Source: a virus | Strand: one strand, 5' to 3' | DNA length: 64,000 bases | UHGV virus genome: UHGV-0072281 | Shown: positions 5,384 to 56,578 of the stretch, in pieces | Layout: each line of letters begins with the position of its first letter | Numbering within the stretch: the first letter of the stretch is position 1 | The notes under the pieces: model-generated | Databases searched by the model: none | Told to the model about the DNA's origin: nothing | What the model saw: the letters and a program-made list of their open reading frames with translations, nothing else | Made by a program: the position numbers and the translations under genes

Positions 5384-5424
5384 TCAGATATATATTACTT
5401 AGGTGAGAGAATTACGTAATACTC
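5384..5424 (+). promoter_or_regulatory. conserved phage promoter motif (TCAGATATATATTAC-TTAGGTGAGAG) plus downstream palindrome
   Basis: One of four near-identical copies in the window; lies after a terminator and ~50 nt before an RBS and ATG. Confidence 0.55.
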
Positions 5425-5455
5425 ATTTATCGTATACCTAATTAGGAGCTATATC

Positions 5456-5599
5456 ATGATTTCTGTAAAACACAAAAAAGCTATCTTCGCTGTTGTTATC
5501 GCTGTTGTTCTGGGTTGCCTGTACCTGGATATCGACAAAGGCTACGACACTTGCATCGACAACGGTAATTCCGTTGCGCAGTGCACTGGTCGTGGTTAA
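5456..5599 (+). CDS. small lipoprotein-like membrane peptide (47 aa)
   Basis: AGGAG RBS; hydrophobic N-terminus ending VLGC (lipobox-like); three Cys; codon usage of a highly expressed gene; own promoter and terminator. Below the length cutoff of the ORF track. Confidence 0.5.
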   Translation: MISVKHKKAIFAVVIAVVLGCLYLDIDKGYDTCIDNGNSVAQCTGRG

Positions 5600-5604
5600 T
5601 GTAT

Positions 5605-5635
5605 AAGGCACCTTCGGGTGCCCTTAATTTTTTTA
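5605..5635 (+). terminator. rho-independent terminator
   Basis: aaggcacc-ttcg-ggtgcctt hairpin followed by a T run. Confidence 0.7.
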
Positions 5636-5653
5636 TTAATTGGAGCATAAACG

Positions 5654-6469
5654 ATGATTACTATTAAAGATTATTTTCCGCGTGGGTTGAGCAATGAAAA
5701 CTTCGTTCCAACTGAAGACATTGCCATCGTTGCAGAGTCCAGCGATAAGTCTTTTAAACTCTACTTGAGTACGGCAGCAGGAAAATCCACTCTTATCCTT
5801 CGTGAACCTGAAGTGATAAGCATCTGCTCGTTTGGGGGTGGTGTAGAAGGAACGATTAACTGGTTGAAATCCAGAATGCATCGTTTGCTTATCGTGAATA
5901 CCGATCCTGTGATTCGTTTACAGCAATTGAAATCGTTGAATGAAATTATCGTCGGATTATTGGAACATGAAACGTTTGGTAATGCTGAGATTGCGGAAGC
6001 GATTAAATCTGTAGAACTAATCGAGTGGAGCGATATCGAATACGAACGTGCTGGGTTATTCGCAATGTACGGTGATGATAATCCCGTTGCGTTTGCACAA
6101 ACGTTGGATAATGTTACCGTAACAGCGCGCGTATTGTTTGGTTTACAACGTGTTGAGTTTGAACTGAAACACGTCTACGTGAGCAATAAACCGGAGATGG
6201 TGGAGACATTGATTCGTGCTTTCGCATACCCGTTAGACGGTGAATGGGAACAGCAGATTAATGAAGCGTTAGAAGCCATGCATTTCCTGGCTGAAACGTT
6301 AAGGAAGGATGAGAAATTGAAAGGTCGTGTTTATCCAGAACACGATTTTGTTTGTGAAGAATGTGGAGCACAGTATCAAATCCGTGTTCCTTTAACCGGC
6401 CTAACATTCCCGCAAGCCAACGTGCAATGTAAGGAATGTGGTCATGTTCAATACGTAGCGATTAAATAA
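5654..6469 (+). CDS. hypothetical protein with C-terminal CxxC...CxxC zinc ribbon
   Basis: ATG with GGAG upstream; C-terminal CEECG...CKECG pair. Confidence 0.6.
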   Translation: MITIKDYFPRGLSNENFVPTEDIAIVAESSDKSFKLYLSTAAGKSTLILREPEVISICSFGGGVEGTINWLKSRMHRLLIVNTDPVIRLQQLKSLNEIIVGLLEHETFGNAEIAEAIKSVELIEWSDIEYERAGLFAMYGDDNPVAFAQTLDNVTVTARVLFGLQRVEFELKHVYVSNKPEMVETLIRAFAYPLDGEWEQQINEALEAMHFLAETLRKDEKLKGRVYPEHDFVCEECGAQYQIRVPLTGLTFPQANVQCKECGHVQYVAIK

Positions 6470-6475
6470 AAGCAA

Positions 6476-6517
6476 CCCCTAATCCCGAAAAGGATTAGGG
6501 GTACACTTTATTTATTT
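6476..6517 (+). terminator. rho-independent terminator
   Basis: cccctaatcc/ggattagggg stem followed by a T-rich tract. Confidence 0.65.
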
Positions 6518-6541
6518 TCGCTCTTAAAAGGAAATTGTGTC

Positions 6542-6697
6542 ATGAGAAATGTTAATGCAATGCTTAACCAGGCATTTGTTAACCAACAGCGTTTTCAGGA
6601 ACGCTTAGCACAACTTAAAACACAACACAGACCACCACAACAAAGAGTGGTTAAGAGCAAGTTCGGCGAAATGGTTTTCGAAAGAAAATCTTTCTAA
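6542..6697 (+). CDS. small basic protein, paralogue A of a tandem triplet (51 aa)
   Basis: AAGGA RBS; shares FxERL and C-terminal F(E/T)ERxS with the next two small ORFs; own terminator. Confidence 0.45.
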   Translation: MRNVNAMLNQAFVNQQRFQERLAQLKTQHRPPQQRVVKSKFGEMVFERKSF

Positions 6698-6706
6698 TAA
6701 CCGTTA

Positions 6707-6729
6707 GGGGTGTGACAGCACCCCTTTTT
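6707..6729 (+). terminator. rho-independent terminator
   Basis: ggggtg/cacccc stem followed by TTTTT. Confidence 0.55.
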
Positions 6730-6847
6730 ACGCTTTAACTTTTCCAAAGAGAAGTTAAAGCAGTAAGGACTGTTGGCGCAGTCCTTACTTGTCATCGCTA
6801 TTACAGAAACGTGATAGCACAATTCTAATTTTTAGAGGCGATCAGAA

Positions 6848-7015
6848 ATGTTCGACAGTATTACACAAATTTTTAACACTACCGTAAACAATCACGCTCA
6901 GCAAGCGAAGTTTAATGAACGATTAAGGGAAGTTCAACAATTAGGATTAAATAAAAGATTAAAATCTTCCAATAATCCTCGAGTACAGATCTTCACCGAA
7001 AGGAGAAGTAACTGA
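6848..7015 (+). CDS. small basic protein, paralogue B (55 aa)
   Basis: AGAGG RBS; QLGxNKRLKxSxN...QIxTExRS shared with paralogue C. Confidence 0.5.
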   Translation: MFDSITQIFNTTVNNHAQQAKFNERLREVQQLGLNKRLKSSNNPRVQIFTERRSN

Positions 7016-7024
7016 TAAAAACAA

Positions 7025-7052
7025 GGTGAGCTGTTGGAGCAGCTCACCTTTT
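7025..7052 (+). terminator. rho-independent terminator
   Basis: ggtgagctg/cagctcacc stem followed by TTTT. Confidence 0.65.
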
Positions 7053-7111
7053 ACAACGCCATTACGTTTCCGTAATGGATTTCTTTAATCACCCTACAAA
7101 GAGGGCTTACC

Positions 7112-7285
7112 ATGAACAATGGTTACTACTTTACTGACAAAATGCTTGCAGAACAATATGCAGCAAAAACCAATTTACAGCAACGTATCTACGAGTATAG
7201 TCAACTCGGTGCGAATAAACGATTAAAACCATCAACCAACCGTTTCACACAGATAATCACTGAAAAAAGGAGTGAACGCTACTAA
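7112..7285 (+). CDS. small basic protein, paralogue C (57 aa)
   Basis: AGAGGG RBS; clear protein-level similarity to paralogue B. Confidence 0.5.
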   Translation: MNNGYYFTDKMLAEQYAAKTNLQQRIYEYSQLGANKRLKPSTNRFTQIITEKRSERY

Positions 7286-9521: not shown

Positions 9522-9533
9522 GGTATTAAACAA

Positions 9534-11819
9534 ATGAAAGATACCCGAATCTCTAATTTAGAGAAACTCGTAGAAGCCGGTACTAGTCTGGCCCAAAACG
9601 TCATCGGCAACAACACCGCCAGCGAAATGTGGAAGACGATTGTTGCAGGCGAGTCCGTACGTAGCAACGCAAAAGTATTTGGCGCTCTGCGTGACGAAGC
9701 ATCACAGCACTATGCCAACGCTTTTGGCGGCAAGAAAATGTCTCATGCTGCGACCGTCGCTTCCGCAATGATTCTGGGCGTAGCTAACCACGGTAAAGAC
9801 CTGCAAGAACGTGTTGCCCAGGAATACGCTAAGCCGGAATTCCACACCAAGTATAACCTGGATATTGGTATCCCTGGTGCGCAAGGTGGTGATTGGGGTC
9901 GTGAGCGTATGGTTGTTGCTCAGGAATACTACAGCAACAAAGACTACGACAAAAACTTGGGCCTGACCTGGACCCTGAACGTACGTGCTCTGGAAACTCA
10001 GTCCAAGTTTGCTGAAACACTGTTCCCGACCATTACCGTTGACACCAACGATGTTGGTATTACCGTACGTACTAAAGTGACTACCGTTTCTCGCGGTATC
10101 ATGAACGCGCTGCTGAGCAAAGACGTCGTTGAAGATCATCGTCGTCCGCTGCACAACGCACTGACTGACCACACCGTTCTCCAGGACGAAGCGATCAACA
10201 TCGTTCCTTACGTAATGGAAACCGGTGAAAACCAGGAATACTTCGTAAGCGAAGATCTGGTTCCGAACGAAAAAGTTCGCCTGGGTCGTGTACCTCCGTA
10301 TCCGACTAACTACCTGAGCTTTGCAAACGACACGCTGAACCTGTTCCAGCTGTCTGCGCATCCGGGTATCGTTCAGGAAGGTTACGATGAAACTGATGAA
10401 ATCGCACCGGGTTGTGCTCTGGGCAGCCTGCTGATTTCTGTACGTAAACCGGCCGAAGAAGCGAAAGCGGGTAAATTCATCAAACTGCACGTTCGTGACA
10501 TGCAGTTCGCAACCTTCCAGCGTCCTGCTGAAGGTGACGGCCGTGAACTGGTTCTGCAATTCCGTCGTACCGCGTTCTCTCTGAATGCGAAAACCACTGA
10601 CTGGAAAGGCGACGCTATTCCGGCACTGCAAGCACTGGGCCAGAACTCCTACACCCTGCGCTACGTTATCACCATCACCATGTCCCTGTTCACCAGCGGC
10701 CAGTTCGGTGGTAAAGTAGACATTTCCGGCCACAAACTGGAAATCGAAGGTCTGTACGATGCAACTGGTAACAAAGTTGATACCAAGTCTGGTACCGGCA
10801 AAGTTATCCTGGATGGCCTGAAACTCGAACTGATGGGCTGGCGCTTCGATGGTACTCGTACCAACGAAAACCGTCGTACCCAGGGTCTGCTGCTTGACCC
10901 AATTTGGGAACAGGAAAACTACAAACTGCAATACGGTTCTCCGATTCTGACCAAGTCTCCGGTTGGTGTTGAATACGACGACACTGAACGTCTGGATGAC
11001 CTGATCTCTGCGGTGAACATCCGTAACGAACAGCTGGCTATTACTCAGACGCTGTCTTACACTGAAGCAGTACGTAACGCAGCCGCTGCGATGATCACTC
11101 CGTGGGACAAACCGGCTATCCGTGGTCTGGGCCGTCACTGGGTTGCTCCGTGGTTCAAAGAGTCTGACTACAAAGTCGATGAAGTTGTTCAGTCTCTGGA
11201 TACCAAAGAAGCGCTGATCAACGCTCGTCAGGGTCTGTTGCAGCGTATCGGTAGCCAGGTAACTCAGGCTATCCAGGATTCTCGTTTCATTCCTGCACTG
11301 CGCCTGCTGACCGCTGATCCGGACATTCTTCCGAAAGTTATTATCGCAACTGACGAACCGACTGCATCCATGCTGCTGCTGGTTCAGGGCGACCAACGTC
11401 TGCTGGGCGACCGTTATGAATACGAAGTCGTTACCACCAACGATGACCGCTGGCGTATCTACAACGCAGCTGACGATTCCTGGACTCGTCGTCTGCAATG
11501 GTTCCTGAAAGTTCCGACTGCGGACGATGGTTCCTACTGCGTACTGAACTGGGGTAACCACTTCTGGTCTCCGATCATGGTTACCAACATCAACATTCAG
11601 CGTAACGGTTCTACTTCTAAAGAACTGGCTGTACAGCCGCGTAACGCGCATATCTGCCACTGCCCGATCACTGGTCTGATTTGGGTTAAAGGCATCACCA
11701 AACTGGTTGAAGAAAAACTGGCTTACAACGTTTCTGTAGAACAGAACGGCCAGAAACAAACCGAAGGTGGTGTAGCAGGTAACCTTGCTGTCGAAGGCAA
11801 AGCTACCGCTGGTAAATAA
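9534..11819 (+). CDS. major virion structural protein, candidate major capsid protein (761 aa); tail sheath not excluded
   Basis: Codon usage sharply different from neighbours (CTG, CGT, GGT, ACC, AAA, GAA dominate); strong terminator directly downstream; size is in the range I recall for jumbo-phage capsid proteins (from memory, unverified). Confidence 0.45.
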   Translation: MKDTRISNLEKLVEAGTSLAQNVIGNNTASEMWKTIVAGESVRSNAKVFGALRDEASQHYANAFGGKKMSHAATVASAMILGVANHGKDLQERVAQEYAKPEFHTKYNLDIGIPGAQGGDWGRERMVVAQEYYSNKDYDKNLGLTWTLNVRALETQSKFAETLFPTITVDTNDVGITVRTKVTTVSRGIMNALLSKDVVEDHRRPLHNALTDHTVLQDEAINIVPYVMETGENQEYFVSEDLVPNEKVRLGRVPPYPTNYLSFANDTLNLFQLSAHPGIVQEGYDETDEIAPGCALGSLLISVRKPAEEAKAGKFIKLHVRDMQFATFQRPAEGDGRELVLQFRRTAFSLNAKTTDWKGDAIPALQALGQNSYTLRYVITITMSLFTSGQFGGKVDISGHKLEIEGLYDATGNKVDTKSGTGKVILDGLKLELMGWRFDGTRTNENRRTQGLLLDPIWEQENYKLQYGSPILTKSPVGVEYDDTERLDDLISAVNIRNEQLAITQTLSYTEAVRNAAAAMITPWDKPAIRGLGRHWVAPWFKESDYKVDEVVQSLDTKEALINARQGLLQRIGSQVTQAIQDSRFIPALRLLTADPDILPKVIIATDEPTASMLLLVQGDQRLLGDRYEYEVVTTNDDRWRIYNAADDSWTRRLQWFLKVPTADDGSYCVLNWGNHFWSPIMVTNINIQRNGSTSKELAVQPRNAHICHCPITGLIWVKGITKLVEEKLAYNVSVEQNGQKQTEGGVAGNLAVEGKATAGK

Positions 11820-11834: not shown

Positions 11835-11872
11835 GTCTAAGCCCCAAAAGGGCTTAGACCTTTTATTTTTTT
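11835..11872 (+). terminator. strong rho-independent terminator
   Basis: gtctaagccc/gggcttagac 10-bp stem followed by a 12-nt T-rich run. Confidence 0.8.
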
Positions 11873-12000
11873 CTTTCTATTATTTTTCGGATAGATATTA
11901 TTAAAGAGAGACTGTCAGTTGGTTTAAAGGAGAGTTTATGGAAAAATTACAGTTAAAACTAAAGATATGTACCATTATTAAAACTTAATCTGGCCCTTAC

Positions 12001-13021: not shown

Positions 13022-14797
13022 GTGTTTAAAGATGCAATCAGAAAGCTTAAAGAGGATGGCAAAATAGTACCCTTTAACCGAGCGATTGCGGAAGGTGTCG
13101 GTTATACCCAGGCCAAAGATGGTATACACGAACGTGTTCAGATTATCTTGAAACGTGAGCTGGATTATCATCCTGTTGATAATCCGCGTGTTCCTGAAGG
13201 GCTGGCTGTATTAGGTGTACGGTTAATGTCGCCGTTTGAAACGTTCATCTATAAGCTGTCTCGTTCTGAGAGCAGCAGAATGGATAGACGCCGTGGTGTG
13301 ATGTCCATTGCGAACACCGATGCGTATATGGTCATGTCAACATTCCGTATTCCAGGAGATTCTCGACCGATCTCAAGACCGATTAACTTACCCTTTATCC
13401 GTCGTGGTGGTTTAATGAACTATTACGGTACGACGTATCACGTTGCGCCGGTTATTCACCAGCCAGGTATCTGTCGCGAACACGGTGGGGTATTTGTTAA
13501 CTTTGACTTTAAACGTAAAGCCTCGTTGAAATTCTGTAAGCAACCTGTCCGTGTGTTAGTCAACGGTAAAAAAGAGGAGCTATTCTTACCAGGAACCAAA
13601 AACCTGTTCAAAGCGAAGAACGCAACACATCCCGATACTGACGAGAAACCGTTAATGTATTGGTTGTTCGGACGTTACGGATTTAAAGAAGCGATTAAAC
13701 GCTATACTGGTGTTGACGTAGAAATTTATCCATCGTTTAAGATCCCAGAACTCGATCTCAACGAGAAAGTTGTAATCAGTTCCGGTGAATCGAAATATAA
13801 CCGTTCGATAATGTACGCGGTTGTCGTACCCGCAGAAGCATTGCCGAACGTGGATAAAGTCGGTTGGGATCAAAACGAGCATTTATTGCTGGCTGCAATT
13901 GCTGCGTTCTTCAAAGCTGCTCACTACTATTGCAGTAAACAATCTATTAAGAACGGTAACGTCACACCGCTGCCGCCGCTGTTTACCGCAATTAACGAGT
14001 TAGCGATGGAAGACGATATTGCTAATCTGAACTCTGCTCCGATTTGGCGTGAGATTCTGGGAAGAAGTATCGTAGGACTGAAACCTTCCGATATTGAGTT
14101 AGCGCACAGTATGGCGAAACACTATACTGAATGTGATCGCTATGTTAACTCAACGTTCCGTGCAGAACTGAAGATGACCGATCCCGACATTCCAGACGAT
14201 ATGGATATGTTTGATTTCTTCTGGTATGCAACGAAACTGATGGTACGTACCCGTTTGACCAAACAGGGCGACATTCCGTCGATGTACGGAAAACGTTTAA
14301 CCGTAACTGACTACTTACTGTTAGGTGACCGTGGGTTTACACCAACGGTAGCGGCTATTCGTTTCCAGCTGGGACAAACGGAGAACCGTTCGCCGGAATC
14401 CTGCGCGAATATGATTCGTAGCGCACTCAATAAAGAAATTGTCACGAGTCTGGTACTGCGTAATATCACCGGTAATGGCGGTGTAAGTTATTTTAACGCA
14501 TCAACAGAATCCATGGTGTTAGGAGTATCCACACACGCGATCAGTCAAACTGAAACGGAATCTAAACGCAACAGCAAGGGCGGTAAAACGGTTAACCTTA
14601 ACGACCGTACGAAACACGCTTCTGCATCGCATCTGGAGTGTGGTAACGTTTATTATATTCCGAAATCATCCCCGTTCAAATGGGGTGTCCTTAACCCGTA
14701 TATGAAAACTAACCGTCAGTTAGTGATGGTTCGTAATCCAAAACTTGACGAGTTAATTCAAGCAACTGAAGAAGACATTGCGAAGATTGGCCGTTAA
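13022..14797 (+). CDS. hypothetical protein (591 aa)
   Basis: GTG start with AAGGAG 6 nt upstream; long ORF. Confidence 0.6.
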   Translation: MFKDAIRKLKEDGKIVPFNRAIAEGVGYTQAKDGIHERVQIILKRELDYHPVDNPRVPEGLAVLGVRLMSPFETFIYKLSRSESSRMDRRRGVMSIANTDAYMVMSTFRIPGDSRPISRPINLPFIRRGGLMNYYGTTYHVAPVIHQPGICREHGGVFVNFDFKRKASLKFCKQPVRVLVNGKKEELFLPGTKNLFKAKNATHPDTDEKPLMYWLFGRYGFKEAIKRYTGVDVEIYPSFKIPELDLNEKVVISSGESKYNRSIMYAVVVPAEALPNVDKVGWDQNEHLLLAAIAAFFKAAHYYCSKQSIKNGNVTPLPPLFTAINELAMEDDIANLNSAPIWREILGRSIVGLKPSDIELAHSMAKHYTECDRYVNSTFRAELKMTDPDIPDDMDMFDFFWYATKLMVRTRLTKQGDIPSMYGKRLTVTDYLLLGDRGFTPTVAAIRFQLGQTENRSPESCANMIRSALNKEIVTSLVLRNITGNGGVSYFNASTESMVLGVSTHAISQTETESKRNSKGGKTVNLNDRTKHASASHLECGNVYYIPKSSPFKWGVLNPYMKTNRQLVMVRNPKLDELIQATEEDIAKIGR

Positions 14798-16750: not shown

Positions 16751-16782
16751 AGGAGAGCCGAAGCTCTCCTCCTTTATTTTTA
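16751..16782 (+). terminator. rho-independent terminator
   Basis: aggagagc-cgaa-gctctcct hairpin followed by a T-rich tract. Confidence 0.7.
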
Positions 16783-16828
16783 TTCCCCAATTTATTATAG
16801 CCGCCCACTATAGTGAGGGAATGAGGAA

Positions 16829-24746: not shown

Positions 24747-24752
24747 AACCAA

Positions 24753-24790
24753 CCTCTACCTTCGGGTAGAGGTTTTCTTCTTTTTATTTT
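24753..24790 (+). terminator. rho-independent terminator
   Basis: cctctacc-ttcg-ggtagagg hairpin followed by a long T-rich run. Confidence 0.75.
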
Positions 24791-32224: not shown

Positions 32225-32259
32225 CCCCTACCTTCGGGTAGGGGGTTATTTAATTTTTT
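32225..32259 (+). terminator. rho-independent terminator
   Basis: cccctacc-ttcg-ggtagggg hairpin followed by T-rich tract. Confidence 0.7.
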
Positions 32260-32260
32260 C

Positions 32261-32300
32261 TCAGATATATATTACCTTAGTGAGATTACACAGTAATCTC
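32261..32300 (+). promoter_or_regulatory. conserved phage promoter motif plus 8-bp hairpin (gagattac/gtaatctc)
   Basis: Copy 2 of TCAGATATATATTACC; directly after a terminator; precedes the XRE regulator gene. Confidence 0.55.
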
Positions 32301-32334: not shown

Positions 32335-32694
32335 ATGGCTTACAATCACAACTCTATTGTTTTAGCAAAACGTAAATTCGGTCTTCATCTTTCTTACGTG
32401 ATTCGTCATTTGACAGCGAAAGACATTACACAGCGTGAACTTGCCCAGCTTGCGAAAGTTTCACAACCGGTTATTTCATCTATTAAGAACGAACGCAGCG
32501 AATGCCTGAGTCTCCCAATAATGATGAAGGTTGCTGATGCGATTCGTCTGAAATATCAGATTACGTTTAATTCTGTTAAAGGGAGTTGCTCAGTAACGGT
32601 TCACGTAGAGTCTGCGTTGGACTACGTTGCAAATACGTCCCTTAAACGTACAGCGAAGAATATTCGTTTTGTTACTAACGGCGCAACACACTAA
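32335..32694 (+). CDS. XRE-family helix-turn-helix transcriptional regulator
   Basis: ITQRELAQLAKVSQPVISSIKN is a typical HTH_3 (Cro/CI-type) motif; first gene after the promoter motif. Confidence 0.65.
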   Translation: MAYNHNSIVLAKRKFGLHLSYVIRHLTAKDITQRELAQLAKVSQPVISSIKNERSECLSLPIMMKVADAIRLKYQITFNSVKGSCSVTVHVESALDYVANTSLKRTAKNIRFVTNGATH

Positions 32695-37253: not shown

Positions 37254-37298
37254 TTTCGATATAACATCAGCATTGCGTTGTTAACGGTCTAAAAAATT

Positions 37299-37332
37299 TA
37301 AGATATATTTCATCTATGTGAGAATTCTCACT
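37299..37332 (+). promoter_or_regulatory. degenerate copy of the promoter motif plus 14-bp palindrome gtgagaattctcac
   Basis: taAGATATATttcatctatGTGAGA followed by a perfect palindrome, 25 nt upstream of the ATG at 37355. Confidence 0.35.
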
Positions 37333-37354: not shown

Positions 37355-37624
37355 ATGGCTAAGATTTACATTGTTGAAAAACGTTCAGGTAATGTTCTTT
37401 CTTATCACGAAGAAGGCAAACCCGAAAGAGTTAAAACGCTCAAGCTTGAAGGTTTTGATGTGAAAAGCCTGCGTAAAGGCGTGAAGATTACTTTCAAAGG
37501 TTTGATTCGTGCAAGTAACTTACACATCATTAAAACGGACGGAACGATGGTTGCATTAGCACCGGCTACCGCTGCGAAAACGACAGCCGGTCGGGGTTGC
37601 TACGGCAGCAGTCGTAAGATTTAA
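37355..37624 (+). CDS. small hypothetical protein (89 aa)
   Basis: ORF between promoter-like element and terminator. Confidence 0.5.
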   Translation: MAKIYIVEKRSGNVLSYHEEGKPERVKTLKLEGFDVKSLRKGVKITFKGLIRASNLHIIKTDGTMVALAPATAAKTTAGRGCYGSSRKI

Positions 37625-48264: not shown

Positions 48265-48274
48265 GGGGGGGGGG
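48265..48274 (+). repeat. homopolymeric G10 tract, 3 nt upstream of the adhesin-2 start codon
   Basis: Ten consecutive G at -12 to -3 relative to ATG 48277. Confidence 0.9.
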
Positions 48275-48817: not shown

Positions 48818-48827
48818 GGGGGGGGGG
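48818..48827 (+). repeat. second homopolymeric G10 tract
   Basis: Ten consecutive G, 55 nt upstream of the GTG start at 48883. Confidence 0.9.
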
Positions 48828-51540: not shown

Positions 51541-52101
51541 ATGAAATATGCTTATTTAAAAGACGGTAATGTGATCGACTGGAATGTTACCGAAGACATG
51601 ATTGCTTTGCGTGGCCACACTGTAGATATTTATACGCCTGTAGTAGAATCTGCTAAACCGGTTGTTAACCCTGATTGTTATATCGTGTTCGAAACAACAC
51701 CAAAACTGGTAAAAGGCAAGCTGGTTCAACAGTGGGTGACTGAAGTGCTGCCTAAAGAAACGGTAGTACGTAACCAGAAGGCACGTTTAGCGGAAATTCG
51801 TTATGCGAAAGAAACTGCCGGGATTACGTTTAAAGACCAAACTATTCCTACGACACGTGATGTACGTTATCAGTTAATTCAGTCTAAACACGTTGATTCT
51901 ACGCAACCTATTAACTGGAAGCTAGGCGATACGTGGCTAAGTCTTACTCAGGAAGACATTGATGCGCTGCTGGTTGCAATCGCAACTTATGTTGAGAAAT
52001 GCTACGCGGCAGAACGCACAGTCTCCGAGAAAATCACTAAGGTGAAAGCACCTGAAAAACTGGATGTAGAAACCTTATTTAACGACGCTTTCGCAGCGTA
52101 A
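51541..52101 (+). CDS. possible tail fibre assembly or chaperone protein (186 aa)
   Basis: Position directly after a fibre gene; faint resemblance to Tfa-type chaperones. Weak. Confidence 0.3.
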   Translation: MKYAYLKDGNVIDWNVTEDMIALRGHTVDIYTPVVESAKPVVNPDCYIVFETTPKLVKGKLVQQWVTEVLPKETVVRNQKARLAEIRYAKETAGITFKDQTIPTTRDVRYQLIQSKHVDSTQPINWKLGDTWLSLTQEDIDALLVAIATYVEKCYAAERTVSEKITKVKAPEKLDVETLFNDAFAA

Positions 52102-52105
52102 CACG

Positions 52106-52147
52106 GTAGCAGGGGCTAAGCCCCTGCTACCTTTTTCTTTATTTTTT
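52106..52147 (+). terminator. rho-independent terminator
   Basis: gtagcagggg-ctaag-cccctgctac hairpin followed by a long T-rich run. Confidence 0.8.
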
Positions 52148-52148
52148 C

Positions 52149-52192
52149 TCAGATATATATTACCTAGAGGAGAGTGAAATTTACATTCACTC
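52149..52192 (+). promoter_or_regulatory. conserved phage promoter motif plus hairpin (gagtgaa/ttcactc)
   Basis: Copy 3 of TCAGATATATATTACCTAG; directly after a terminator. Confidence 0.55.
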
Positions 52193-52221
52193 CATTAGTT
52201 ATAGCCGAAAAGGAGGATTAG

Positions 52222-53073
52222 ATGTATCACCCGTATTATCTCCCGCACATTCTAGCAAATAGAGACCCTGGTTATTACTACGAACAAACAAAAGGATCTT
52301 TTAATCGGCTCTACATTCGCGAATTTAATACTGATGAAATGACCGATGACCAGTATCTGGAGTATCTAAAAGACCTCTACGGTTTTTCAAAATCGAATAA
52401 AGGTGGCTTTGGACGTTCCGCAGTTATTAGAGTTGGTGAATATCGTCATTTGGCTAAGCCCGTTACGTATCCTATTGTTACACGCGCTTATACATCGGAT
52501 AGGCAATATATTGCTGAACTAAAATTTCCTTTACGGATAGACGGGCCACAAATTAGCGCTATAGAAGTAGAAATTCAACCAATTGCTGAAGACTATATTG
52601 AAGTCTACTTCAAGAAAGCTAAAGAGGTACTCGAGGAGGGTTTAAGCTACTATGAAGAAGGAACGATTTGTCTTCTTTCGTTACTCACGAAGGCTTATGT
52701 CACAGCAAATTTCCGTATCTCCGACTCCAGTGACTATAACACATTTACCCCCTCTAAGGCAAAACCTGTTTATTGGGACGATCAGTTAGTCGACAGACAA
52801 CGCTGGCTTACTATCTTAGATAAAGTAAAATTCGAACCCCCTAAACACACTGAAGACAACTTTATTCTATCCCACAACTTCGAACCGATCTATATTCCGA
52901 CGCATTTTGAGCAAGCCTTACGTCATCGATTGAAGTATGTGTTGGAATTACGGTACGGGAAGATAAATGGGCTAACTTGTTCTGGTGAATTGAGTGAAGA
53001 AGAACGCGAGAAGATAAAAATCGTGTTTGATAAGTTGGTTGAAGATTACATTAAGAAGGAAGGACAGTTATGA
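52222..53073 (+). CDS. hypothetical protein (283 aa)
   Basis: AAGGAGGA RBS; first gene after the promoter motif. Confidence 0.6.
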   Translation: MYHPYYLPHILANRDPGYYYEQTKGSFNRLYIREFNTDEMTDDQYLEYLKDLYGFSKSNKGGFGRSAVIRVGEYRHLAKPVTYPIVTRAYTSDRQYIAELKFPLRIDGPQISAIEVEIQPIAEDYIEVYFKKAKEVLEEGLSYYEEGTICLLSLLTKAYVTANFRISDSSDYNTFTPSKAKPVYWDDQLVDRQRWLTILDKVKFEPPKHTEDNFILSHNFEPIYIPTHFEQALRHRLKYVLELRYGKINGLTCSGELSEEEREKIKIVFDKLVEDYIKKEGQL

Positions 53074-53513
53074 AACCAAATACTACTAACGGCATTATGT
53101 TACTTTGTGATTCTGAAACGTTAGCAAACCGTATTCGTGGTTTGATGCAAGTACGTTGGCAGCAAAAGGTTCGCGTGGATTATGCTGCTCCGTTTGTTCA
53201 CGTTAGTTGGTTGCCAGAAGCTAACGATTTCAAAGAAAATATCACCACGAAAAGAATTAAAAATTGGTTAATGGCAATCATTAACAAACAGATTACCGTT
53301 ATCAATTTCCAGTTGTTCGGTAGTAAAGAGGAACATGATACCTTAAAACGCTGTTTAAGGGGATTGGATCTTGCCTTTTCTGTTCGTGGAAATTGTTACA
53401 CAGCGTTCTTCATCGGTTCTCTCGAGTTATTTCAGGGAACATTAAACATTCAACTAAAAGAAGATTACGGGATTGTAAATAAGATTGATTTCGAATTCCC
53501 AGCAATGATTTAA
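53070..53513 (+). CDS. hypothetical protein (147 aa)
   Basis: ATGA overlap with upstream gene. Confidence 0.5.
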   Translation: MKPNTTNGIMLLCDSETLANRIRGLMQVRWQQKVRVDYAAPFVHVSWLPEANDFKENITTKRIKNWLMAIINKQITVINFQLFGSKEEHDTLKRCLRGLDLAFSVRGNCYTAFFIGSLELFQGTLNIQLKEDYGIVNKIDFEFPAMI

Positions 53514-53524
53514 GGAGTAGTAGC

Positions 53525-54352
53525 ATGTTACAGTTCGAACTCACCGAAGAAAGAAAAGTCGTTAACGAGTTTAAAATTTCCCCTATCCCTACCGAAAAAC
53601 AAATTAAAGAAATCGCTGAGTTACAAAATAAGTACAGCTTTTACTATAAAGTTAAATCGGAAACATTTAATATTTTCTGGACCGAAGACGAGGTCAATTT
53701 CCCTAACAAACTCATTAATGCGGCTCTAGATATTTTAGTACGGCCTGTTGAGACGTCTAAAGATCCAGAACAAACCACTTGTAGGTTGAAAGTCGAGCGC
53801 CCAGCGAAGGATGTTGCTTACTTCACAGACGAGATTCTACTTACCTCCAAACAGGCAGGTAAAATTGGATCAATATTATACCTTTTTTACAGCGACAAAT
53901 TCACTTATCTGGTTGAAAACAACGTACTTAAAGTGAACTATGAATATGCTAGTTATCGTGTTCTTTTAAATCAACTATTGGAAGACATAGAGGGAGAAAA
54001 TGTTCTGGTATTTACAGTTGAATATATTAGCAAAGCCGATGCTGGCGAGTTTATCCGCCGCGTGAAAGATGAACTCGAAGACCGTGAATTTATGATTTAT
54101 CAAAGCAAATATCTTGAAGGTAACTTGAATCTCTTGATCAGAAACGAATCATGGATTCTTAAAGTTTTGGAATCCCATGCGCAGAAAATTAAGAGAGGCA
54201 GTGATTGTTTTAAACAAATTTTCGAGAAATACGAAACGGAAATTAGACAACGGCTTGCATCCCACTGGGCCGTAGATCAGGATGTGGAATACGCCCAGCT
54301 ATTTGATAAGTTTTATAACGAGATGAGGAGGGTTTGGGATCTTAAACAATAG
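53525..54352 (+). CDS. hypothetical protein (275 aa)
   Basis: ORF with AGGAG upstream. Confidence 0.55.
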   Translation: MLQFELTEERKVVNEFKISPIPTEKQIKEIAELQNKYSFYYKVKSETFNIFWTEDEVNFPNKLINAALDILVRPVETSKDPEQTTCRLKVERPAKDVAYFTDEILLTSKQAGKIGSILYLFYSDKFTYLVENNVLKVNYEYASYRVLLNQLLEDIEGENVLVFTVEYISKADAGEFIRRVKDELEDREFMIYQSKYLEGNLNLLIRNESWILKVLESHAQKIKRGSDCFKQIFEKYETEIRQRLASHWAVDQDVEYAQLFDKFYNEMRRVWDLKQ

Positions 54353-54432
54353 GCCGAAGATCATTTCCGTAAGTATTAAACAGGGGGATTTACGTCCCCT
54401 CAACACAGAGCAAACCCCTAAAGGAGCATTAA

Positions 54433-54948
54433 ATGTCAGTAAATATTAACATGAATCTTTATACTAAACGTGAACGTCAGATTCTGGCGAATCAACCCGG
54501 TGTTACGACTATTGACGGTAAACCCATTGACCGTTTAAAAGTTATCGTTGCGCGAAATTGCCATGAACGCGATTGGGACATTACCTACTTCCGTTGTTGT
54601 TCGGTCGCAAACGCGCTTACCCAACTCTCCAACTACCACCCAGGGCCGTTATTAAAAGACTGGGTTTGGTTAGTACCCAAAACACCTTCGGCGATTGAAT
54701 ACCCCTCAGGGTTGGTTTATATCCGTCCTGTTGCTTATCCAGAACGTCTGAAAGAGTATCTTGAAGTTATCTGGAACCGTCCTCGTAAAGAGCTGGTGAC
54801 GATCATTAATTTACTGCAACAGATCGATATCCCCGGAGTTTTGAATTTGAAACTCACGTCTCGCGATATTAACCAGGCTTACTGGGAACTAGAGTGGACA
54901 GAACCGAAATTCGAAAACACTAACCGTATTTTCTTGCACCGGGGGTAA
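54433..54948 (+). CDS. hypothetical protein (171 aa)
   Basis: AAGGAG RBS. Confidence 0.55.
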   Translation: MSVNINMNLYTKRERQILANQPGVTTIDGKPIDRLKVIVARNCHERDWDITYFRCCSVANALTQLSNYHPGPLLKDWVWLVPKTPSAIEYPSGLVYIRPVAYPERLKEYLEVIWNRPRKELVTIINLLQQIDIPGVLNLKLTSRDINQAYWELEWTEPKFENTNRIFLHRG

Positions 54949-54950
54949 AA

Positions 54951-55232
54951 ATGTTAAATTGGTTGTTGGGTTTAATTAACTCACGTCAACAGGAGCTTTA
55001 TAAAGAAAACACACGATTACGGCAGGAACTTAATAACAATCGTCAGACCAAACGACAATTAATTCGGATGGTAAAACAACAGGCGCGTTGTATACGGGAT
55101 ATCGATTATCAGTATCACCGTCTGAATACCTTAGACCCAACAACAAAAGCTTTAGGTAGTACGATTGGACACGCACGTAAAGTCAGTCACGATGCGTTAG
55201 TTCGAATCGATACAATAGAAGAGAAACTGTGA
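54951..55232 (+). CDS. small hypothetical protein (93 aa)
   Basis: Coupled to upstream gene. Confidence 0.45.
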   Translation: MLNWLLGLINSRQQELYKENTRLRQELNNNRQTKRQLIRMVKQQARCIRDIDYQYHRLNTLDPTTKALGSTIGHARKVSHDALVRIDTIEEKL

Positions 55233-55275
55233 TTAGCACTCCCTCGGTTTTCCCGAGGGAGATAAGGTGTTTTGC

Positions 55276-55665
55276 ATGAAGCGTTTATCTTACTTAAAAA
55301 GACGTTTGTTACTAAAGGTCCAATTATTCATCAATGGGAAAGTTAAAAACTGGCTATGTGGTGAAAGGGTACAACGTATCGTCAGTGAGGGCGACTGGTA
55401 TACGGAAATCGTGGTTTCCCCAAATGGCGAGCTTATAAACGTTACCATTCGTGACGTTTTGGTTAAGATTGGCAGGGAAGGTGGTTTGCTGTTTGAATCG
55501 GAAACTACAAAAGTCGTTGCTAAACAATTGAAAGAAGGTCGGATTATATTCAACGTTGCTGCCCAAAAATACTACGACAATTTATTCGAATGTCAACGAG
55601 CAATAGGCAGAATGACTCGTGAGATGCGAAGAATGCACATCACGGAGATCACTATAGGAGTTTAA
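55276..55665 (+). CDS. hypothetical protein (~129 aa)
   Basis: ATG 55276 (track start is a GTG). Confidence 0.45.
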   Translation: MKRLSYLKRRLLLKVQLFINGKVKNWLCGERVQRIVSEGDWYTEIVVSPNGELINVTIRDVLVKIGREGGLLFESETTKVVAKQLKEGRIIFNVAAQKYYDNLFECQRAIGRMTREMRRMHITEITIGV

Positions 55666-55667
55666 CG

Positions 55668-55976
55668 ATGGAAAATAAAATCGCAAACACAACGGCACCT
55701 GAGAACATCGTCAACTATATTCTCAGTGGCGGGTTATTAGAAGACAACAAAGAAACGTGCGATAAACTCGTTTCACAACTACTGCCTATTCGTTCAGAAT
55801 ACTGCGAAATCGTTATCTTAGGTTCTGAGTATTGCGTACGTTCTTACTGTCGTCGTTTCGAAGCCTTACGCGTTCCACGTACGTTAGGTGGCGTGATACT
55901 CTTAGTCTCTAACTTTCACAGTGCACACGTTCGTGTTGCAACCTGGATTGCAAACGGTGGCGATAATGGTTTTTAA
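55668..55976 (+). CDS. hypothetical protein (102 aa)
   Basis: Coupled start. Confidence 0.45.
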   Translation: MENKIANTTAPENIVNYILSGGLLEDNKETCDKLVSQLLPIRSEYCEIVILGSEYCVRSYCRRFEALRVPRTLGGVILLVSNFHSAHVRVATWIANGGDNGF

Positions 55977-56077
55977 TTTATTTAAACGTAAGGAATGTCC
56001 TGTCTGCGAAACCTGCGAAAAAAATTATCTCTACGCAAGATGAGCTAATCAAACAGCAAGATAAGTTGCTCACTGAA

Positions 56078-56254
56078 ATGGGCGAACTCTATTTTAAACT
56101 TTGTGCTATTACCGAACTGGTTAGTGAAGGTGTGTTAACGAAAGACGGTGGATTAGAGTTGGTCAAGAAGGCAACGATTCACTGTCGTCCTGAAGTAGAA
56201 AAATATAAACTTGAAGTGAAACGTGAAATGTGGGAGATTATTAATGAAGCGTGA
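56078..56254 (+). CDS. small hypothetical protein (~58 aa)
   Basis: ATG 56078 in frame with track ORF; weak. Confidence 0.35.
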   Translation: MGELYFKLCAITELVSEGVLTKDGGLELVKKATIHCRPEVEKYKLEVKREMWEIINEA

Positions 56255-56525
56255 AACAGTTGTATTTCGTAGTAATGGTGATGTGGTTTTGTATCGTGGT
56301 AAGAAACGTATTCGTACGTTAGAATACCGTGAAGCAAAACGTTTTGTTGAAGAGTGTGCATGGTTAATGCATTACGAAGGGAACTATCGTGCTATCTTAG
56401 AAGCTCCGCGTTTAGAACGTGCGGTTGCACAGATGGCAATAGGTAATCCTAAGAACTGTTACCTGGCCCGTAAGCCAAAATACTTACAGCGTCTTTCGTT
56501 AGGCAGCTTTATTGCTGGATTTTAA
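56244..56525 (+). CDS. small hypothetical protein (~93 aa)
   Basis: ATG overlaps upstream stop. Confidence 0.4.
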   Translation: MKRETVVFRSNGDVVLYRGKKRIRTLEYREAKRFVEECAWLMHYEGNYRAILEAPRLERAVAQMAIGNPKNCYLARKPKYLQRLSLGSFIAGF

Positions 56526-56536
56526 TAAAAATAATT

Positions 56537-56578
56537 TCAGATATATATTACCTAGGTGAGAGTTCAGTTACTCTCACT
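56537..56578 (+). promoter_or_regulatory. conserved phage promoter motif plus hairpin (gtgagagt/actctcac)
   Basis: Copy 4 of TCAGATATATATTACCTAGGTGAGAG. Confidence 0.55.

What the first reader, a model, noticed from the sequence alone, without database searches (positions are those of the whole stretch)
5384..56578. Conserved ~25-bp promoter-like motif TCAGATATATATTACCTAGGTGAGAG followed by a variable hairpin
Four near-exact copies (5384, 32261, 52149, 56537) plus degenerate ones (37299, 11888). Each sits just after a rho-independent terminator and 40-60 nt before a gene start, with no conserved -35 element. Each is followed by a 7-8 bp stem beginning GAG and ending CTC whose loop differs between copies. 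This looks like a phage-specific promoter class with a 5'-leader stem-loop. The TATATTAC core resembles what I recall of early promoters in phiKZ-like phages, but I am not certain of that consensus.
Basis: partly seen in the sequence, partly recalled or inferred. Interest (0 to 1): 0.6.

Follow-up and report, generated by a model that had tools for sequence, protein, structure and literature searches.

The report
Jumbo-phage early promoters with 5′ hairpins
The repeated motif is the known early-promoter type that giant phiKZ-like phages use with the RNA polymerase they carry in the virion, but in this phage lineage, unlike phiKZ, most resulting mRNAs are predicted to start with a small hairpin that probably shields them from host RNases.

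Summary
The 15-mer TCAGATATATATTAC occurs exactly four times (0 expected), with two degenerate copies. All six are intergenic, on the + strand and 30-53 nt upstream of a start codon. The window is a chimallivirus-type jumbo phage; its capsid is 78-80% identical to phiEaH2, Asesino and SPN3US. The motif fits published early (virion RNA polymerase) promoter consensuses position for position: phiKZ TATATTAC, the OBP/N1M2 consensus, and AR9 AAATATATATTAT-(6N)-G+1. Across 47 independent promoters of this lineage, 64% have a helix of at least 5 bp starting at nt 1-3 (13% in shuffles), and stem starts peak at +1. Arms covary, G·U pairs occur, and the sense strand folds better than the antisense. phiKZ and Klebsiella phage N1M2 lack the signal. 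I found no prior description. The most likely role is protection from RppH/RNase E (inferred). The terminator claim holds for only 3 of 6 copies. No transcription start site data exist for this lineage.

The parts
5374..5408 (+). Promoter copy 1: A/T-rich tract, core TCAGATATATATTAC (5384-5398), 6N, predicted +1 G at 5405
   Evidence: matrix score 52.6. Orthologs in L095, L101, L104 and SPN3US 65432 precede the same 47-aa gene.
5405..5424 (+). Predicted 5'-terminal hairpin of transcript 1 (GAGAGAATTACGTAATACTC). Imperfect: GAG/CUC plus AUU/AAU with an internal loop.
   Evidence: not better than shuffles, z = -0.07. Relatives keep an imperfect stem. The SPN3US ortholog has a perfect but different stem, GATAGA/TCTATC.
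5223..5252 (+). Strong intrinsic terminator (12 bp) about 130 nt upstream of copy 1
5456..5599 (+). First gene of unit 1: 47-aa protein (phrog_8574, unknown function). 5' UTR 51 nt.
11835..11859 (+). Intrinsic terminator after the major capsid gene (9534-11819)
11877..11911 (+). Promoter copy 2, variant class (core TCGGATAGATATTAT 11887-11901, predicted +1 at 11908). No terminal hairpin.
   Evidence: score 19.0. Positional orthologs: SPN3US 72505 and phiKZ 120657, both directly after the capsid gene. Fits the K = G alternative of the OBP/N1M2 consensus.
13022..14797 (+). Homolog of phiKZ gp123, a beta-like subunit of the non-virion RNA polymerase. It lies downstream of copy 2, after a 17-codon mini-ORF (11938-11988) and gene 12001-13011.
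   Evidence: E = 2e-21 to phiKZ gp123; phrog_2943 'polymerase'; gp123 is an nvRNAP subunit made from early genes.
32225..32244 (+). Intrinsic terminator after the thymidylate kinase gene (31573-32217)
32251..32285 (+). Promoter copy 3 (core 32261-32275, predicted +1 at 32282)
   Evidence: score 46.7. Same kinase-promoter-HTH synteny as SPN3US 93524-94675.
32282..32300 (+). 5'-terminal hairpin of transcript 3: GAGATTAC-aca-GTAATCTC (8 bp)
   Evidence: -8.2 kcal/mol, z = -1.95. The syntenic ortholog L027 has a different stem, GAGAGTTA/TAACTCT.
32335..32694 (+). First gene of unit 3: 119-aa helix-turn-helix DNA-binding protein. 5' UTR 53 nt.
   Evidence: PF13744, PF01381; phrog_7126
37289..37323 (+). 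Promoter copy 4, degenerate (core TAAGATATATTTCAT 37299-37313, predicted +1 at 37320). No terminator directly upstream.
   Evidence: (score 21.0)
37318..37331 (+). Small palindromic hairpin GTGAGAATTCTCAC (5 bp, starts at -2) before gene 37355-37624
52105..52131 (+). Strong intrinsic terminator (12 bp, 9 GC) after the tail-fibre-like gene 51541-52101
52139..52173 (+). Promoter copy 5 (core 52149-52163, predicted +1 at 52170). Heads a block of nine genes of unknown function (52222-56525).
   Evidence: (score 39.6)
52170..52193 (+). 5'-terminal hairpin of transcript 5 (GAGTGAA-atttaca-TTCACTC). 5' UTR 52 nt.
   Evidence: -7.6 kcal/mol, z = -3.05
56527..56561 (+). Promoter copy 6, a perfect match to the lineage consensus AAAAATAATTTCAGATATATATTACCTAGGTGAGA (core 56537-56551, predicted +1 at 56558)
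   Evidence: score 54.6
56556..56577 (+). 5'-terminal hairpin of transcript 6: (GT)GAGAG-ttcagtta-CTCTC(AC), before gene 56608-57102. 5' UTR 50 nt.
   Evidence: -8.4 kcal/mol, z = -2.71. Close orthologs L033, L090 and L103 keep the stem while the loop is rewritten (TACAAAAG, TACGAAAG).

Best explanation
The six sites are early promoters of a phiKZ-related (chimallivirus-type) jumbo phage. They are recognised by the multisubunit RNA polymerase packaged in the virion and injected with the DNA. The recognition element is an A/T-rich tract (-31..-22) followed by the near-invariant block TTTCAGATATATATTAC (-23..-7). Transcription is predicted to start at the G seven nucleotides after TAC, giving RNAs that begin GAGA.

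In this lineage (SPN3US, phiEaH2, CR5 and relatives, plus the window's phage) the first roughly 18-24 nt of most such RNAs fold into a 6-9 bp hairpin whose 5' arm starts at +1. About 20-25 unstructured nucleotides, a Shine-Dalgarno sequence and the start codon follow, for a total 5' UTR of 50-53 nt.

The hairpin acts in the RNA. Its most likely job is to leave no single-stranded 5' end for RppH and the 5'-end sensor of RNase E, which would lengthen the life of early mRNAs in the host cytoplasm.

Shown here: the motif, its context, its fit to published consensuses, positional orthology, the position of the hairpin, arm covariation and lineage restriction. Inferred: use by the virion polymerase, early timing, the exact start site and the stabilising function.

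My graded confidence: promoter of this class about 0.9; hairpin is a selected RNA-level element about 0.8; its function is 5'-end protection about 0.5.
For: Promoter class:
- Published consensuses fit: phiKZ TATATTAC, 201phi2-1 ..TTTRARR_BTATATTACDWHDGTG, OBP and N1M2 WWWWWTTTCARRYAKATATTATYWAAGTGWA, and AR9 AAATATATATTAT-(6N)-G+1. The same paper states that the phiKZ and phiR1-37 start sites lie 6 nt downstream of the element. The review says every such phage has an AT-rich motif centred near -10.
- phiKZ itself carries TATATTAC-6N-purine at 29 AT-rich sites, 26 on the + strand.
- SPN3US has 14 matrix hits, all on the + strand and all 30-135 nt upstream of an annotated gene.
- The 15-mer recurs in many 205-246 kb jumbo-phage contigs.
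- Copy 11888 lies between the capsid gene and a gp123-like nvRNAP subunit gene, as do SPN3US 72505 and phiKZ 120657.
- Downstream genes are small and mostly of unknown function, plus one HTH protein.

Hairpin:
- A helix of at least 5 bp starts at nt 1-3 in 59% of promoter-context sites, against 13% of shuffles and 8-12% at offsets of +6 nt or more downstream (33% at +3). In the strong class it is 30 of 47.
- Stems of at least 6 bp start at +1 in 19 of 83 promoters, against a background of 0-3 at most other positions, with lesser peaks at +3, -2 and within the palindromic core.
- Sense RNA folds at -4.92 kcal/mol, antisense at -3.91 (p = 0.001), shuffles at -1.85 (p = 1e-10). 32 of 303 helix pairs are G·U.
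- Swap control: a promoter's own +3..+8 arm finds its exact complement downstream in 12 of 47 cases, against 43 of 2090 for other promoters' arms (p = 6e-10), with 33 different arms.
- Orthologs keep the stem but change the loop, or change both arms.

Function: 5'-terminal base pairing is an established protection against RppH and RNase E in E. coli (references in PMC3997798). Early chimallivirus mRNAs are made in a vesicle and exported to the host cytoplasm.
Against: - No transcription start site, timing or polymerase-dependence data exist for this lineage in the literature I could search, so +1 is set only by a rule measured in other phages.
- The hairpin is not universal. 36% of strong-class promoters lack a terminal helix of at least 5 bp; copy 5384 is no better than shuffles; the variant copies 11888 and 37299 have little or none.
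- Stems are short and AU-rich (-6 to -8 kcal/mol).
- The RNase argument does not explain the distribution by itself. N1M2 infects an enterobacterium yet shows no significant signal, and Pseudomonas also has RNase E.
- The absence of a Dip homolog outside the Pseudomonas phiKZ-like phages is only weakly suggestive.
- The promoter sample was gathered with the exact 15-mer, so it is biased towards the strong class and towards related genomes, although it was de-duplicated.
Confidence: 0.6

Rival explanations
1. The promoter reading is right, but the 5' hairpin is a recognition tag rather than a stabiliser. It could be a binding site for a phage or host protein that marks early transcripts for export from the early-infection vesicle, for ribosome loading, or for timed shut-off.
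For: Early mRNAs must leave a membrane vesicle by an unknown route. The hairpin is confined to one lineage rather than tracking host type, as expected for co-evolution with a lineage-specific partner. The first four nucleotides (GAGA) and the constant 50-53 nt leader length are conserved.
Against: Loop sequence and length (3-8 nt or more) and the variable part of the arms are unconstrained: 33 different arms among 47 promoters. That leaves little for sequence-specific recognition beyond GAGA, which may simply be an initiation preference. The one chimallivirus RNA-binding protein studied (ChmC) showed no motif, bound near start codons, and did not affect early proteins.
Confidence: 0.15
2. The inverted repeat works in the DNA, as part of the promoter or initially transcribed region. 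It could be extruded or melted to help the virion polymerase open or clear the promoter, by analogy with the hairpin promoters of phage N4.
For: N4's virion polymerase does use DNA hairpins (PMC4496689, listed; details from my own knowledge). The repeat is adjacent to the promoter core. In some copies the stem reaches 2 nt upstream of the predicted +1: GTGAGAG...CTCTCAC at 56556-56577 and 37318-37331.
Against: About 10% of helix pairs are G·U, which would be C·A mismatches on the other strand, and the sense RNA folds significantly better than the antisense. phiKZ and N1M2 share the promoter core yet have no such repeat. The repeat lies downstream of +1 with variable loops, unlike N4's fixed 3-nt loop hairpin upstream of the start. 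The polymerase here is multisubunit, not T7-like.
Confidence: 0.06
3. The hairpins have no function of their own. They are inherited pieces of a mobile promoter cassette that spreads by recombination, so their recurrence reflects common descent.
For: The identical promoter, hairpin and leader of copy 32261 occur in relatives L007 and L028 in unrelated gene contexts. Several stems belong to families such as GAGAGTTAA/TTAACTC. T4-type phages have comparable mobile terminator/promoter cassettes.
Against: Descent alone does not explain 33 different arm sequences that each match their own partner (12 of 47 against 2% in the swap control). Nor does it explain orthologs with both arms changed (window against L027 against SPN3US), loops rewritten while stems are kept, or the sharp start at +1. 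Cassette mobility is compatible with a functional hairpin.
Confidence: 0.07
4. The motif is a host sigma70 promoter (TATATT as the -10 element, with an upstream A/T tract acting as an UP element) used by the bacterial polymerase for early genes, as in T4.
For: TATATT matches TATAAT at 5 of 6 positions. The sigma70 scan flags weak matches (9 of 12) overlapping copies 56537 and 37299.
Against: There is no conserved -35 and no TG extension. Sigma70-like sites are not enriched in the window: 25, 35 and 40 found against 30, 32 and 35 expected. Invariant positions (TCAG, and AC after TATATT) have no role for sigma70. The same core marks promoters mapped in phiKZ, whose development is reported as independent of host transcription. 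The injected chimallivirus genome sits inside a vesicle with the virion polymerase.
Confidence: 0.03
5. The hairpin is a promoter-proximal attenuator or early terminator that limits read-through into the early genes.
For: In many Erwinia-phage copies the stem is followed by TTTT, for example AATCTTTTAC. The terminator scan flags 52172-52192.
Against: In the window, three of four hairpins have no U-tract. The stems are AU-rich and weak for terminators. Part of the T-run is itself paired with the 5' GA. The real terminators in the window have 8-14 bp GC-rich stems.
Confidence: 0.04

Closest known systems
phiKZ early promoters (virion RNA polymerase), core TATATTAC
   Same: Same core, same 6-nt spacer to a purine start, AT-rich upstream region and no -35. 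Tens of copies per genome, co-oriented with small early genes. One copy sits in the same slot after the capsid gene, ahead of the gp123-type nvRNAP subunit.
   Different: The window's conserved block is longer (TTTCAGATATATATTAC). phiKZ's upstream half reads ..TTTAAACAG or ..TTAAGAT. phiKZ leaders are not structured at +1: -1.9 against -1.4 kcal/mol for shuffles, p = 0.78, and 5 of 29 with a terminal helix against 30 of 47 here (Fisher p = 1e-4).
Predicted early promoters of Pseudomonas phage OBP and Klebsiella phage N1M2 (WWWWWTTTCARRYAKATATTATYWAAGTGWA)
   Same: Position-for-position fit, including the A/T tract, TTTCA, the G/T alternative that separates my 'strong' and 'variant' classes, and GTG-W-A around the start.
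   Different: The window's strong class ends in TAC rather than TAT. N1M2 start regions show only a few weak AU stems and no significant folding excess. Those promoters were predicted, not mapped.
AR9 early promoters, AAATATATATTAT-(6N)-G+1 (mapped by dRNA-seq and primer extension)
   Same: ATATATATTA(T/C)-6N-G is shared. This is the experimental anchor for where +1 lies.
   Different: AR9 is a distant, uracil-DNA Bacillus phage. I did not test its leaders for hairpins.
5'-terminal stabilising stem-loops of E. coli mRNAs (ompA, papA) and the phage T7 gene 10 leader
   Same: A sequence-independent hairpin at or within 2 nt of the 5' end, followed by an unstructured spacer and the ribosome-binding site. 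The hosts are enterobacteria, where 5'-end-dependent decay is established (references; the T7 leader is from my own knowledge).
   Different: Here the hairpin is a systematic accessory of a whole promoter class in a virus with its own polymerase, rather than a feature of single genes. Its effect on half-life is untested.
PeSL cassettes of T4-type phages (promoter-early stem-loop: composite terminator plus early promoter)
   Same: Terminator followed by an early promoter at the borders of blocks of variable genes of unknown function (copies 11888, 32261, 52149). One cassette is found in unrelated contexts in relatives.
   Different: In PeSLs the stem-loop is the upstream terminator and the promoter is a sigma70 type. 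Here there is a second stem-loop downstream of the start. Recombination at these sites is suggested by one case only.
Hairpin promoters of the phage N4 virion RNA polymerase
   Same: A virion-carried polymerase, early genes, and an inverted repeat associated with the promoter.
   Different: N4 has a single-subunit T7-like enzyme and a DNA hairpin upstream of the start with a fixed small loop (my own knowledge; PMC4496689 appears). Here the repeat is transcribed, has variable loops and shows RNA-type G·U pairing.

Membership tests
Early (virion RNA polymerase) promoters of phiKZ-related jumbo phages | The phage encodes two split multisubunit RNA polymerases (virion and non-virion) | tested here: inconclusive
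   The window holds a homolog of the nvRNAP subunit phiKZ gp123 (13022-14797, E = 2e-21). No virion polymerase gene lies in these 64 kb. Relatives such as SPN3US are annotated with eight 'RNA polymerase beta subunit' genes, consistent with two split enzymes. The rest of this genome was not available.
Early (virion RNA polymerase) promoters of phiKZ-related jumbo phages | Highly conserved AT-rich element of about 10-15 nt centred near -10, containing (T)ATATTA(C/T) | tested here: met
   Exact 15-mer in 4 copies, variants in 2. Fits the printed consensuses of phiKZ, 201phi2-1, OBP, N1M2 and AR9.
Early (virion RNA polymerase) promoters of phiKZ-related jumbo phages | Conserved purine start 6 nt downstream of the element | tested here: met
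   G at that position in 6 of 6 window sites and 14 of 14 SPN3US sites. This is the sequence feature only; the actual start site was not measured.
Early (virion RNA polymerase) promoters of phiKZ-related jumbo phages | Many copies per genome, intergenic, co-oriented with and close to the first gene of operons of early-type genes | tested here: met
   6 of 6 in the window and 14 of 14 in SPN3US. Downstream genes are mostly of unknown function, plus an HTH protein and an nvRNAP subunit.
Early (virion RNA polymerase) promoters of phiKZ-related jumbo phages | Transcription within minutes of infection, resistant to rifampicin and independent of new protein synthesis | not testable with these tools
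   No transcriptome of this lineage was found in the library.
5'-terminal stabilising stem-loops (ompA type) | Helix begins at or within about 2 nt of the RNA 5' end | tested here: met
   Stem starts peak at the predicted +1. 30 of 47 strong promoters have a helix of at least 5 bp starting at nt 1-3. This depends on the inferred start site.
5'-terminal stabilising stem-loops (ompA type) | Structure, not sequence, is conserved | tested here: met
   Swap control 26% against 2%. Orthologs differ in their arms or have rewritten loops. G·U pairs and strand asymmetry are present.
5'-terminal stabilising stem-loops (ompA type) | Lengthens mRNA half-life by blocking RppH and RNase E 5'-end access | not testable with these tools
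   Needs half-life measurements in wild-type, rppH and rne sensor-mutant hosts.
Bacterial sigma70 promoters | -35 hexamer 16-18 nt upstream of a -10 hexamer | tested here: not met
   No conserved -35. Only 2 of 6 sites give a weak match (9 of 12), and there is no enrichment over shuffles.
N4-type DNA hairpin promoters | Hairpin upstream of the start site with a fixed short loop, read by a single-subunit virion polymerase | tested here: not met
   The repeat lies at +1..+24, loops are 3-8 nt or longer, and pairing is RNA-type. The lineage has multisubunit polymerases.
PeSL-like mobile terminator/promoter cassettes | Composite terminator plus early promoter flanking variable genes and serving as a recombination point | tested here: inconclusive
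   A terminator lies directly upstream in 3 of 6 copies. There is one clear case of the same cassette in unrelated contexts. No systematic test was done.
Curated RNA families (Rfam 15) | Match to a covariance model at its gathering score | tested here: not met
   0 matches in the whole window.

The most novel reading that the evidence does not exclude
In one lineage of nucleus-forming jumbo phages of enterobacteria, the virion-polymerase promoter has fused with a transferable 5' hairpin into a single cassette. The hairpin would then be more than a passive shield: a cap-like identity mark on first-wave transcripts made inside the early-infection vesicle. It could be used for export, preferential translation or timed decay, and could take the place of other anti-RNase strategies such as phiKZ's Dip protein.
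Probability: 0.15. Interest if true: 0.7.

Novelty: new variant of a known kind. Interest (0 to 1): 0.4.

Why it matters
The promoter itself is ordinary for this phage family, and saying so prevents it from being reported as new.

The useful result is the systematic 5'-terminal hairpin. It gives a testable answer to how early mRNAs of these phages survive in the host cytoplasm after leaving the infection vesicle. It separates two lineages that share a promoter core but differ in leader design, SPN3US-like against phiKZ-like. It also offers compact promoter-plus-leader parts for engineering SPN3US-type phages, or for expression systems driven by the virion polymerase.

The consensus also allows early operons to be annotated in dozens of uncultured 205-246 kb phage genomes.

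Tried and rejected
- **Source genome.** Megablast of the 4.3 kb tail-fibre gene against 50,697 phage records found nothing. The phage is not in that collection. The closest relatives are IMG/VR contigs of 221-225 kb.
- **Curated RNAs.** No Rfam family and no tRNA in the window.
- **Sigma70 reading.** Rejected.
- **Text search for the motif.** ATATATTAC plus 'phage' gave nothing relevant. TATATTAC plus 'phiKZ' found the one paper with printed consensuses.
- **Papers and supplements not held.** The phiKZ transcriptome paper (PMC4178840) and the AR9 genome paper are not held. Supplements with phiKZ start coordinates are not held either. I therefore could not check my predicted phiKZ +1 positions base by base, and relied on the stated 6-nt rule.
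- **Goslar.** I fetched its first 50 kb hoping to use its early/late RNA-seq. It has the TATATTAC-6N-G core only once there, in a different upstream context, so it is too distant to stand in for this lineage. I dropped it.
- **OBP/N1M2 consensus in IMG/VR.** Only 5 loci were returned, so I fetched N1M2 itself.
- **'Host RNase explains the hairpin'.** Weakened by N1M2, which has an enterobacterial host but no clear signal.
- **Dip absence.** Dip homologs are confined to Pseudomonas phiKZ-like phages. This is suggestive only.
- **Alignment-based covariation tools.** Not used, because loop lengths differ and any hand-made alignment would be fitted to the structure. The swap control replaces them.

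Full report

Yes. The 26-mer matches at 5384, 32261, 52149 and 56537 with at most 3 mismatches, against none in 100 shuffles. The 15-mer TCAGATATATATTAC is exact in all four. The degenerate copies are at 11887 (TCGGATAGATATTAT) and 37299 (TAAGATATATTTCAT). A weight matrix built from independent instances elsewhere, covering only -31..+4, recovers exactly these six sites in the window and none in shuffled sequence.

All six are on the + strand. All lie in the 6.3% of the window that is intergenic, and all read TA(C/T)-6N-GAGA. The distance from the G to the next start codon is 51, 53, 52 and 50 nt for the four exact copies, and 35 and 30 nt for the two variants.

Two sub-claims are only partly right:
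- Strong intrinsic terminators end 17-28 nt upstream of copies 11888, 32261 and 52149. Copy 5384 has one about 130 nt away. Copies 37299 and 56537 have none that qualifies.
- Clean hairpins follow 32261, 52149 and 56537 (-7.6 to -8.4 kcal/mol, z -2 to -3). The one after 5384 is imperfect and no better than shuffles. The one after 37299 is 5 bp. Copy 11888 has none.

**2. What genome is this?**

The window encodes a phiKZ-type major head protein, a DnaB-like helicase, virion proteins, a long tail fibre and a homolog of phiKZ gp123. gp123 is a beta-like subunit of the non-virion RNA polymerase made from early genes.

The capsid protein is 78-80% identical to those of Erwinia phages phiEaH2 and Asesino and Salmonella phage SPN3US. 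Nothing closer is in the phage collection. The closest relatives are uncultured 221-225 kb contigs in IMG/VR. Gene order follows SPN3US.

**3. What is the motif?**

It is the early-promoter type of phiKZ-related jumbo phages. The evidence:
- The review of their polymerases states that every such phage has a conserved AT-rich motif of about 10 nt centred near -10 upstream of early operons, and that it proved to be the early promoter wherever transcripts were mapped.
- The AR9 study gives AAATATATATTAT-(6N)-G+1 and says the phiKZ and phiR1-37 starts also lie 6 nt downstream of the element.
- A paper on Klebsiella phage N1M2 prints the consensuses: phiKZ TATATTAC; 201phi2-1 ..TTTRARR_BTATATTACDWHDGTG; OBP ..WWWWWTTTYARRYAKATATTATYWWADTG; N1M2 ..WWWWWTTTCARRYAKATATTATYWAAGTGWA.
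- The lineage consensus I derived, AAAAATAATTTCAGATATATATTACCTAGGTGAGA, fits the last two position for position. Their G/T alternative corresponds to my 'variant' class (..GATAGATATTAT..), to which copy 11888 belongs.
- In phiKZ itself I find TATATTAC-6N-purine at 29 AT-rich sites, 26 on the + strand. Published counts are 28-32 early promoters.
- In SPN3US the matrix gives 14 hits, all on the + strand and all 30-135 nt upstream of an annotated gene.

Positional orthology is strong:
- Copy 32261 lies between the thymidylate kinase and an HTH gene, exactly as SPN3US 94258 does.
- Copy 5384 precedes the same 47-aa gene as SPN3US 65432.
- Copy 11888 lies directly after the capsid gene and ahead of the gp123-like gene, as do SPN3US 72505 and phiKZ 120657.

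**4. Where is the hairpin?**

The stem-loop is therefore the 5' terminus of the RNA, not merely something in the leader.

To test this beyond four examples, I collected every instance of the 15-mer in IMG/VR. About half lie in jumbo-phage contigs of 205-246 kb, in AT-rich intergenic context. These include the records whose lengths match SPN3US, phiEaH2, Caitlin, Huxley and CR5. The rest are chance hits inside genes of unrelated contigs and serve as a rough control.

Results:
- A helix of at least 5 bp starting at nt 1-3 of the predicted RNA occurs in 59% of promoter-context sites, 13% of shuffles and 8-12% at offsets of +6 nt or more downstream, with 33% at +3.
- After extending the set with the matrix and de-duplicating to 83 promoters, stems of at least 6 bp start at +1 in 19 cases. 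The background is 0-3 at most other positions, with lesser peaks at +3, at -2 and within the palindromic core.
- In the 47 strong-class promoters, 30 have such a terminal helix, with a mean folding energy of -6.0 kcal/mol.

**5. RNA or DNA, selected or inherited?**

- The sense RNA folds better than its reverse complement (-4.92 against -3.91 kcal/mol, p = 0.001) and far better than shuffles (-1.85, p = 1e-10). 32 of 303 helix pairs are G·U. This points to the transcript.
- In a swap control that needs no alignment, a promoter's own +3..+8 arm finds its exact complement downstream in 12 of 47 cases, against 43 of 2090 for other promoters' arms. There are 33 different arms.
- Orthologs agree. 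For copy 56537, relatives about 90% identical keep GAGAG/CTCTC while the 8-nt loop is rewritten.
- For copy 32261, the syntenic ortholog L027 has flanking genes 85-91% identical but carries GAGAGTTA/TAACTCT instead of GAGATTAC/GTAATCTC, and SPN3US has GAGAGTT/AACTCTC.
- For copy 5384, SPN3US has GATAGA/TCTATC.

**6. How widely does it occur?**

It is not a general property of the promoter class.
- phiKZ start regions fold no better than shuffles (-1.92 against -1.44, p = 0.78). 5 of 29 have a terminal helix, against 30 of 47 here (Fisher p = 1e-4).
- N1M2 infects an enterobacterium but belongs to the OBP-like branch. It also shows no significant excess (-1.61 against -1.33, p = 0.76; 5 of 14 have weak AU stems).

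The hairpin is therefore a trait of the lineage that shares the exact 15-mer (SPN3US, phiEaH2, CR5 and relatives). It is not tied to the polymerase family or to the host family.

None of the transcriptome or genome papers I could read mentions it.

**7. How it most likely works**

Shown: the sequence anatomy described above.

Inferred, step by step:
- The injected virion polymerase binds the A/T tract and the TTTCAGATATATATTAC block.
- It starts at the G and makes RNAs beginning GAGA.
- The nascent 5' end folds as soon as about 20 nt are out.
- The mRNA is exported from the early-infection vesicle to the cytoplasm.
- There, the paired 5' end denies RppH and the RNase E 5' sensor the unpaired nucleotides they need (principle and primary references).
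- The remaining roughly 30 nt of leader stay open for the ribosome.

phiKZ encodes Dip, a protein I recall (not checked here) as a degradosome inhibitor. Its homologs are confined to Pseudomonas phiKZ-like phages. That is compatible with different lineages solving the same problem differently, but it proves nothing.

Rivals considered were a recognition tag for export or translation, a DNA-level promoter element, an attenuator, a sigma70 promoter, and a functionless passenger of mobile cassettes. Each is weighed in the rivals section.

**8. Cassettes**

Three copies show the terminator-then-promoter arrangement at borders between late genes (capsid, tail fibre) or metabolic genes and blocks of small genes of unknown function.

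The complete promoter-hairpin-leader of copy 32261 recurs in two relatives in gene contexts with no similarity to the window. This resembles the mobile terminator/promoter PeSL cassettes of T4-type phages. I have one case only.

**9. Verdict and limits**

The motif is a new member of a known promoter class. The coupled 5'-terminal hairpin is, as far as I could find, an undescribed lineage-specific variant of it, and combines two known ideas.

Limits:
- There are no start-site or timing data for this lineage.
- +1 rests on a rule measured in phiKZ, phiR1-37 and AR9.
- The promoter sample was seeded with the exact 15-mer.
- The hairpin is frequent but not universal.
- Its function is untested.

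Noticed in passing
window 6542-7285: Three tandem small paralogous genes (51, 55 and 57 aa) with similar C-termini (..NKRLK.S.N....I.TE(K/R)RS..). Each is followed by its own strong, partly bidirectional terminator. They lie downstream of promoter copy 5384. SPN3US has small genes in the same place (gp195, gp194).
   Followed up: no
window 48265-48274 and 48818-48827: Two runs of exactly ten G. One lies 2 nt before the ATG at 48277; the other is about 55 nt before the GTG at 48883. Both are in the tail-fibre region, just after the 1438-aa fibre gene. They could be slippage-prone tracts or unusual ribosome-binding sequences.
   Followed up: no
window 11938-11988: A 16-aa mini-ORF (MEKLQLKLKICTIIKT) with a good Shine-Dalgarno sequence, 30 nt after the predicted start of variant promoter 11888. 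It is conserved in relatives L095 and L101, and an ATG sits at the same place in SPN3US (about 72541, unannotated). It may be a leader peptide ahead of the gp122/gp123-like genes.
   Followed up: partly
window 16789-16802 and 31504-31517: A second shared intergenic motif, AATTTATTA(T/C)A(G/A)CC, about 20-30 nt downstream of two terminators (16751-16770 and 31463-31482). It may be another promoter class, middle or late. There are only two copies, so it could be chance.
   Followed up: no
L007 and L028 (IMG/VR contigs 3300045988_078609 and 3300029126_000001) against window 32251-32320: The identical promoter, hairpin (GAGATTACACAGTAATCTC) and first ~25 nt of leader occur in front of unrelated genes, with no similarity to the window on either side. 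The syntenic ortholog L027 has a different hairpin. This suggests exchange of promoter cassettes between loci or genomes.
   Followed up: partly
L122, L123, L125 (SPN3US 65450-65475, 94280-94300, 114030-114050, 223320-223340): SPN3US early leaders share a further motif, (T)AATCGAC(T/C)AT, between the hairpin and the ribosome-binding site. It is also seen in phiEaH2-like loci L071 and L081. It has no exact match in the window.
   Followed up: no
window, whole: Terminator-like sites are about twice as frequent as in shuffles (38, 34 and 33 per 20 kb against about 19). Several are perfect bidirectional hairpins, for example 6475-6502, 24751-24774, 33415-33432, 61586-61607 and 63591-63615.
   Followed up: partly
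L126-L131 (phiKZ): phiKZ early promoters fall into two upstream sub-types..(A/C)ATTTTAAACAG-TATATTAC and ..AAAAA(N)TTTAAGAT(C/A)-TATATTAC. This is visible directly in the genome.
   Followed up: no
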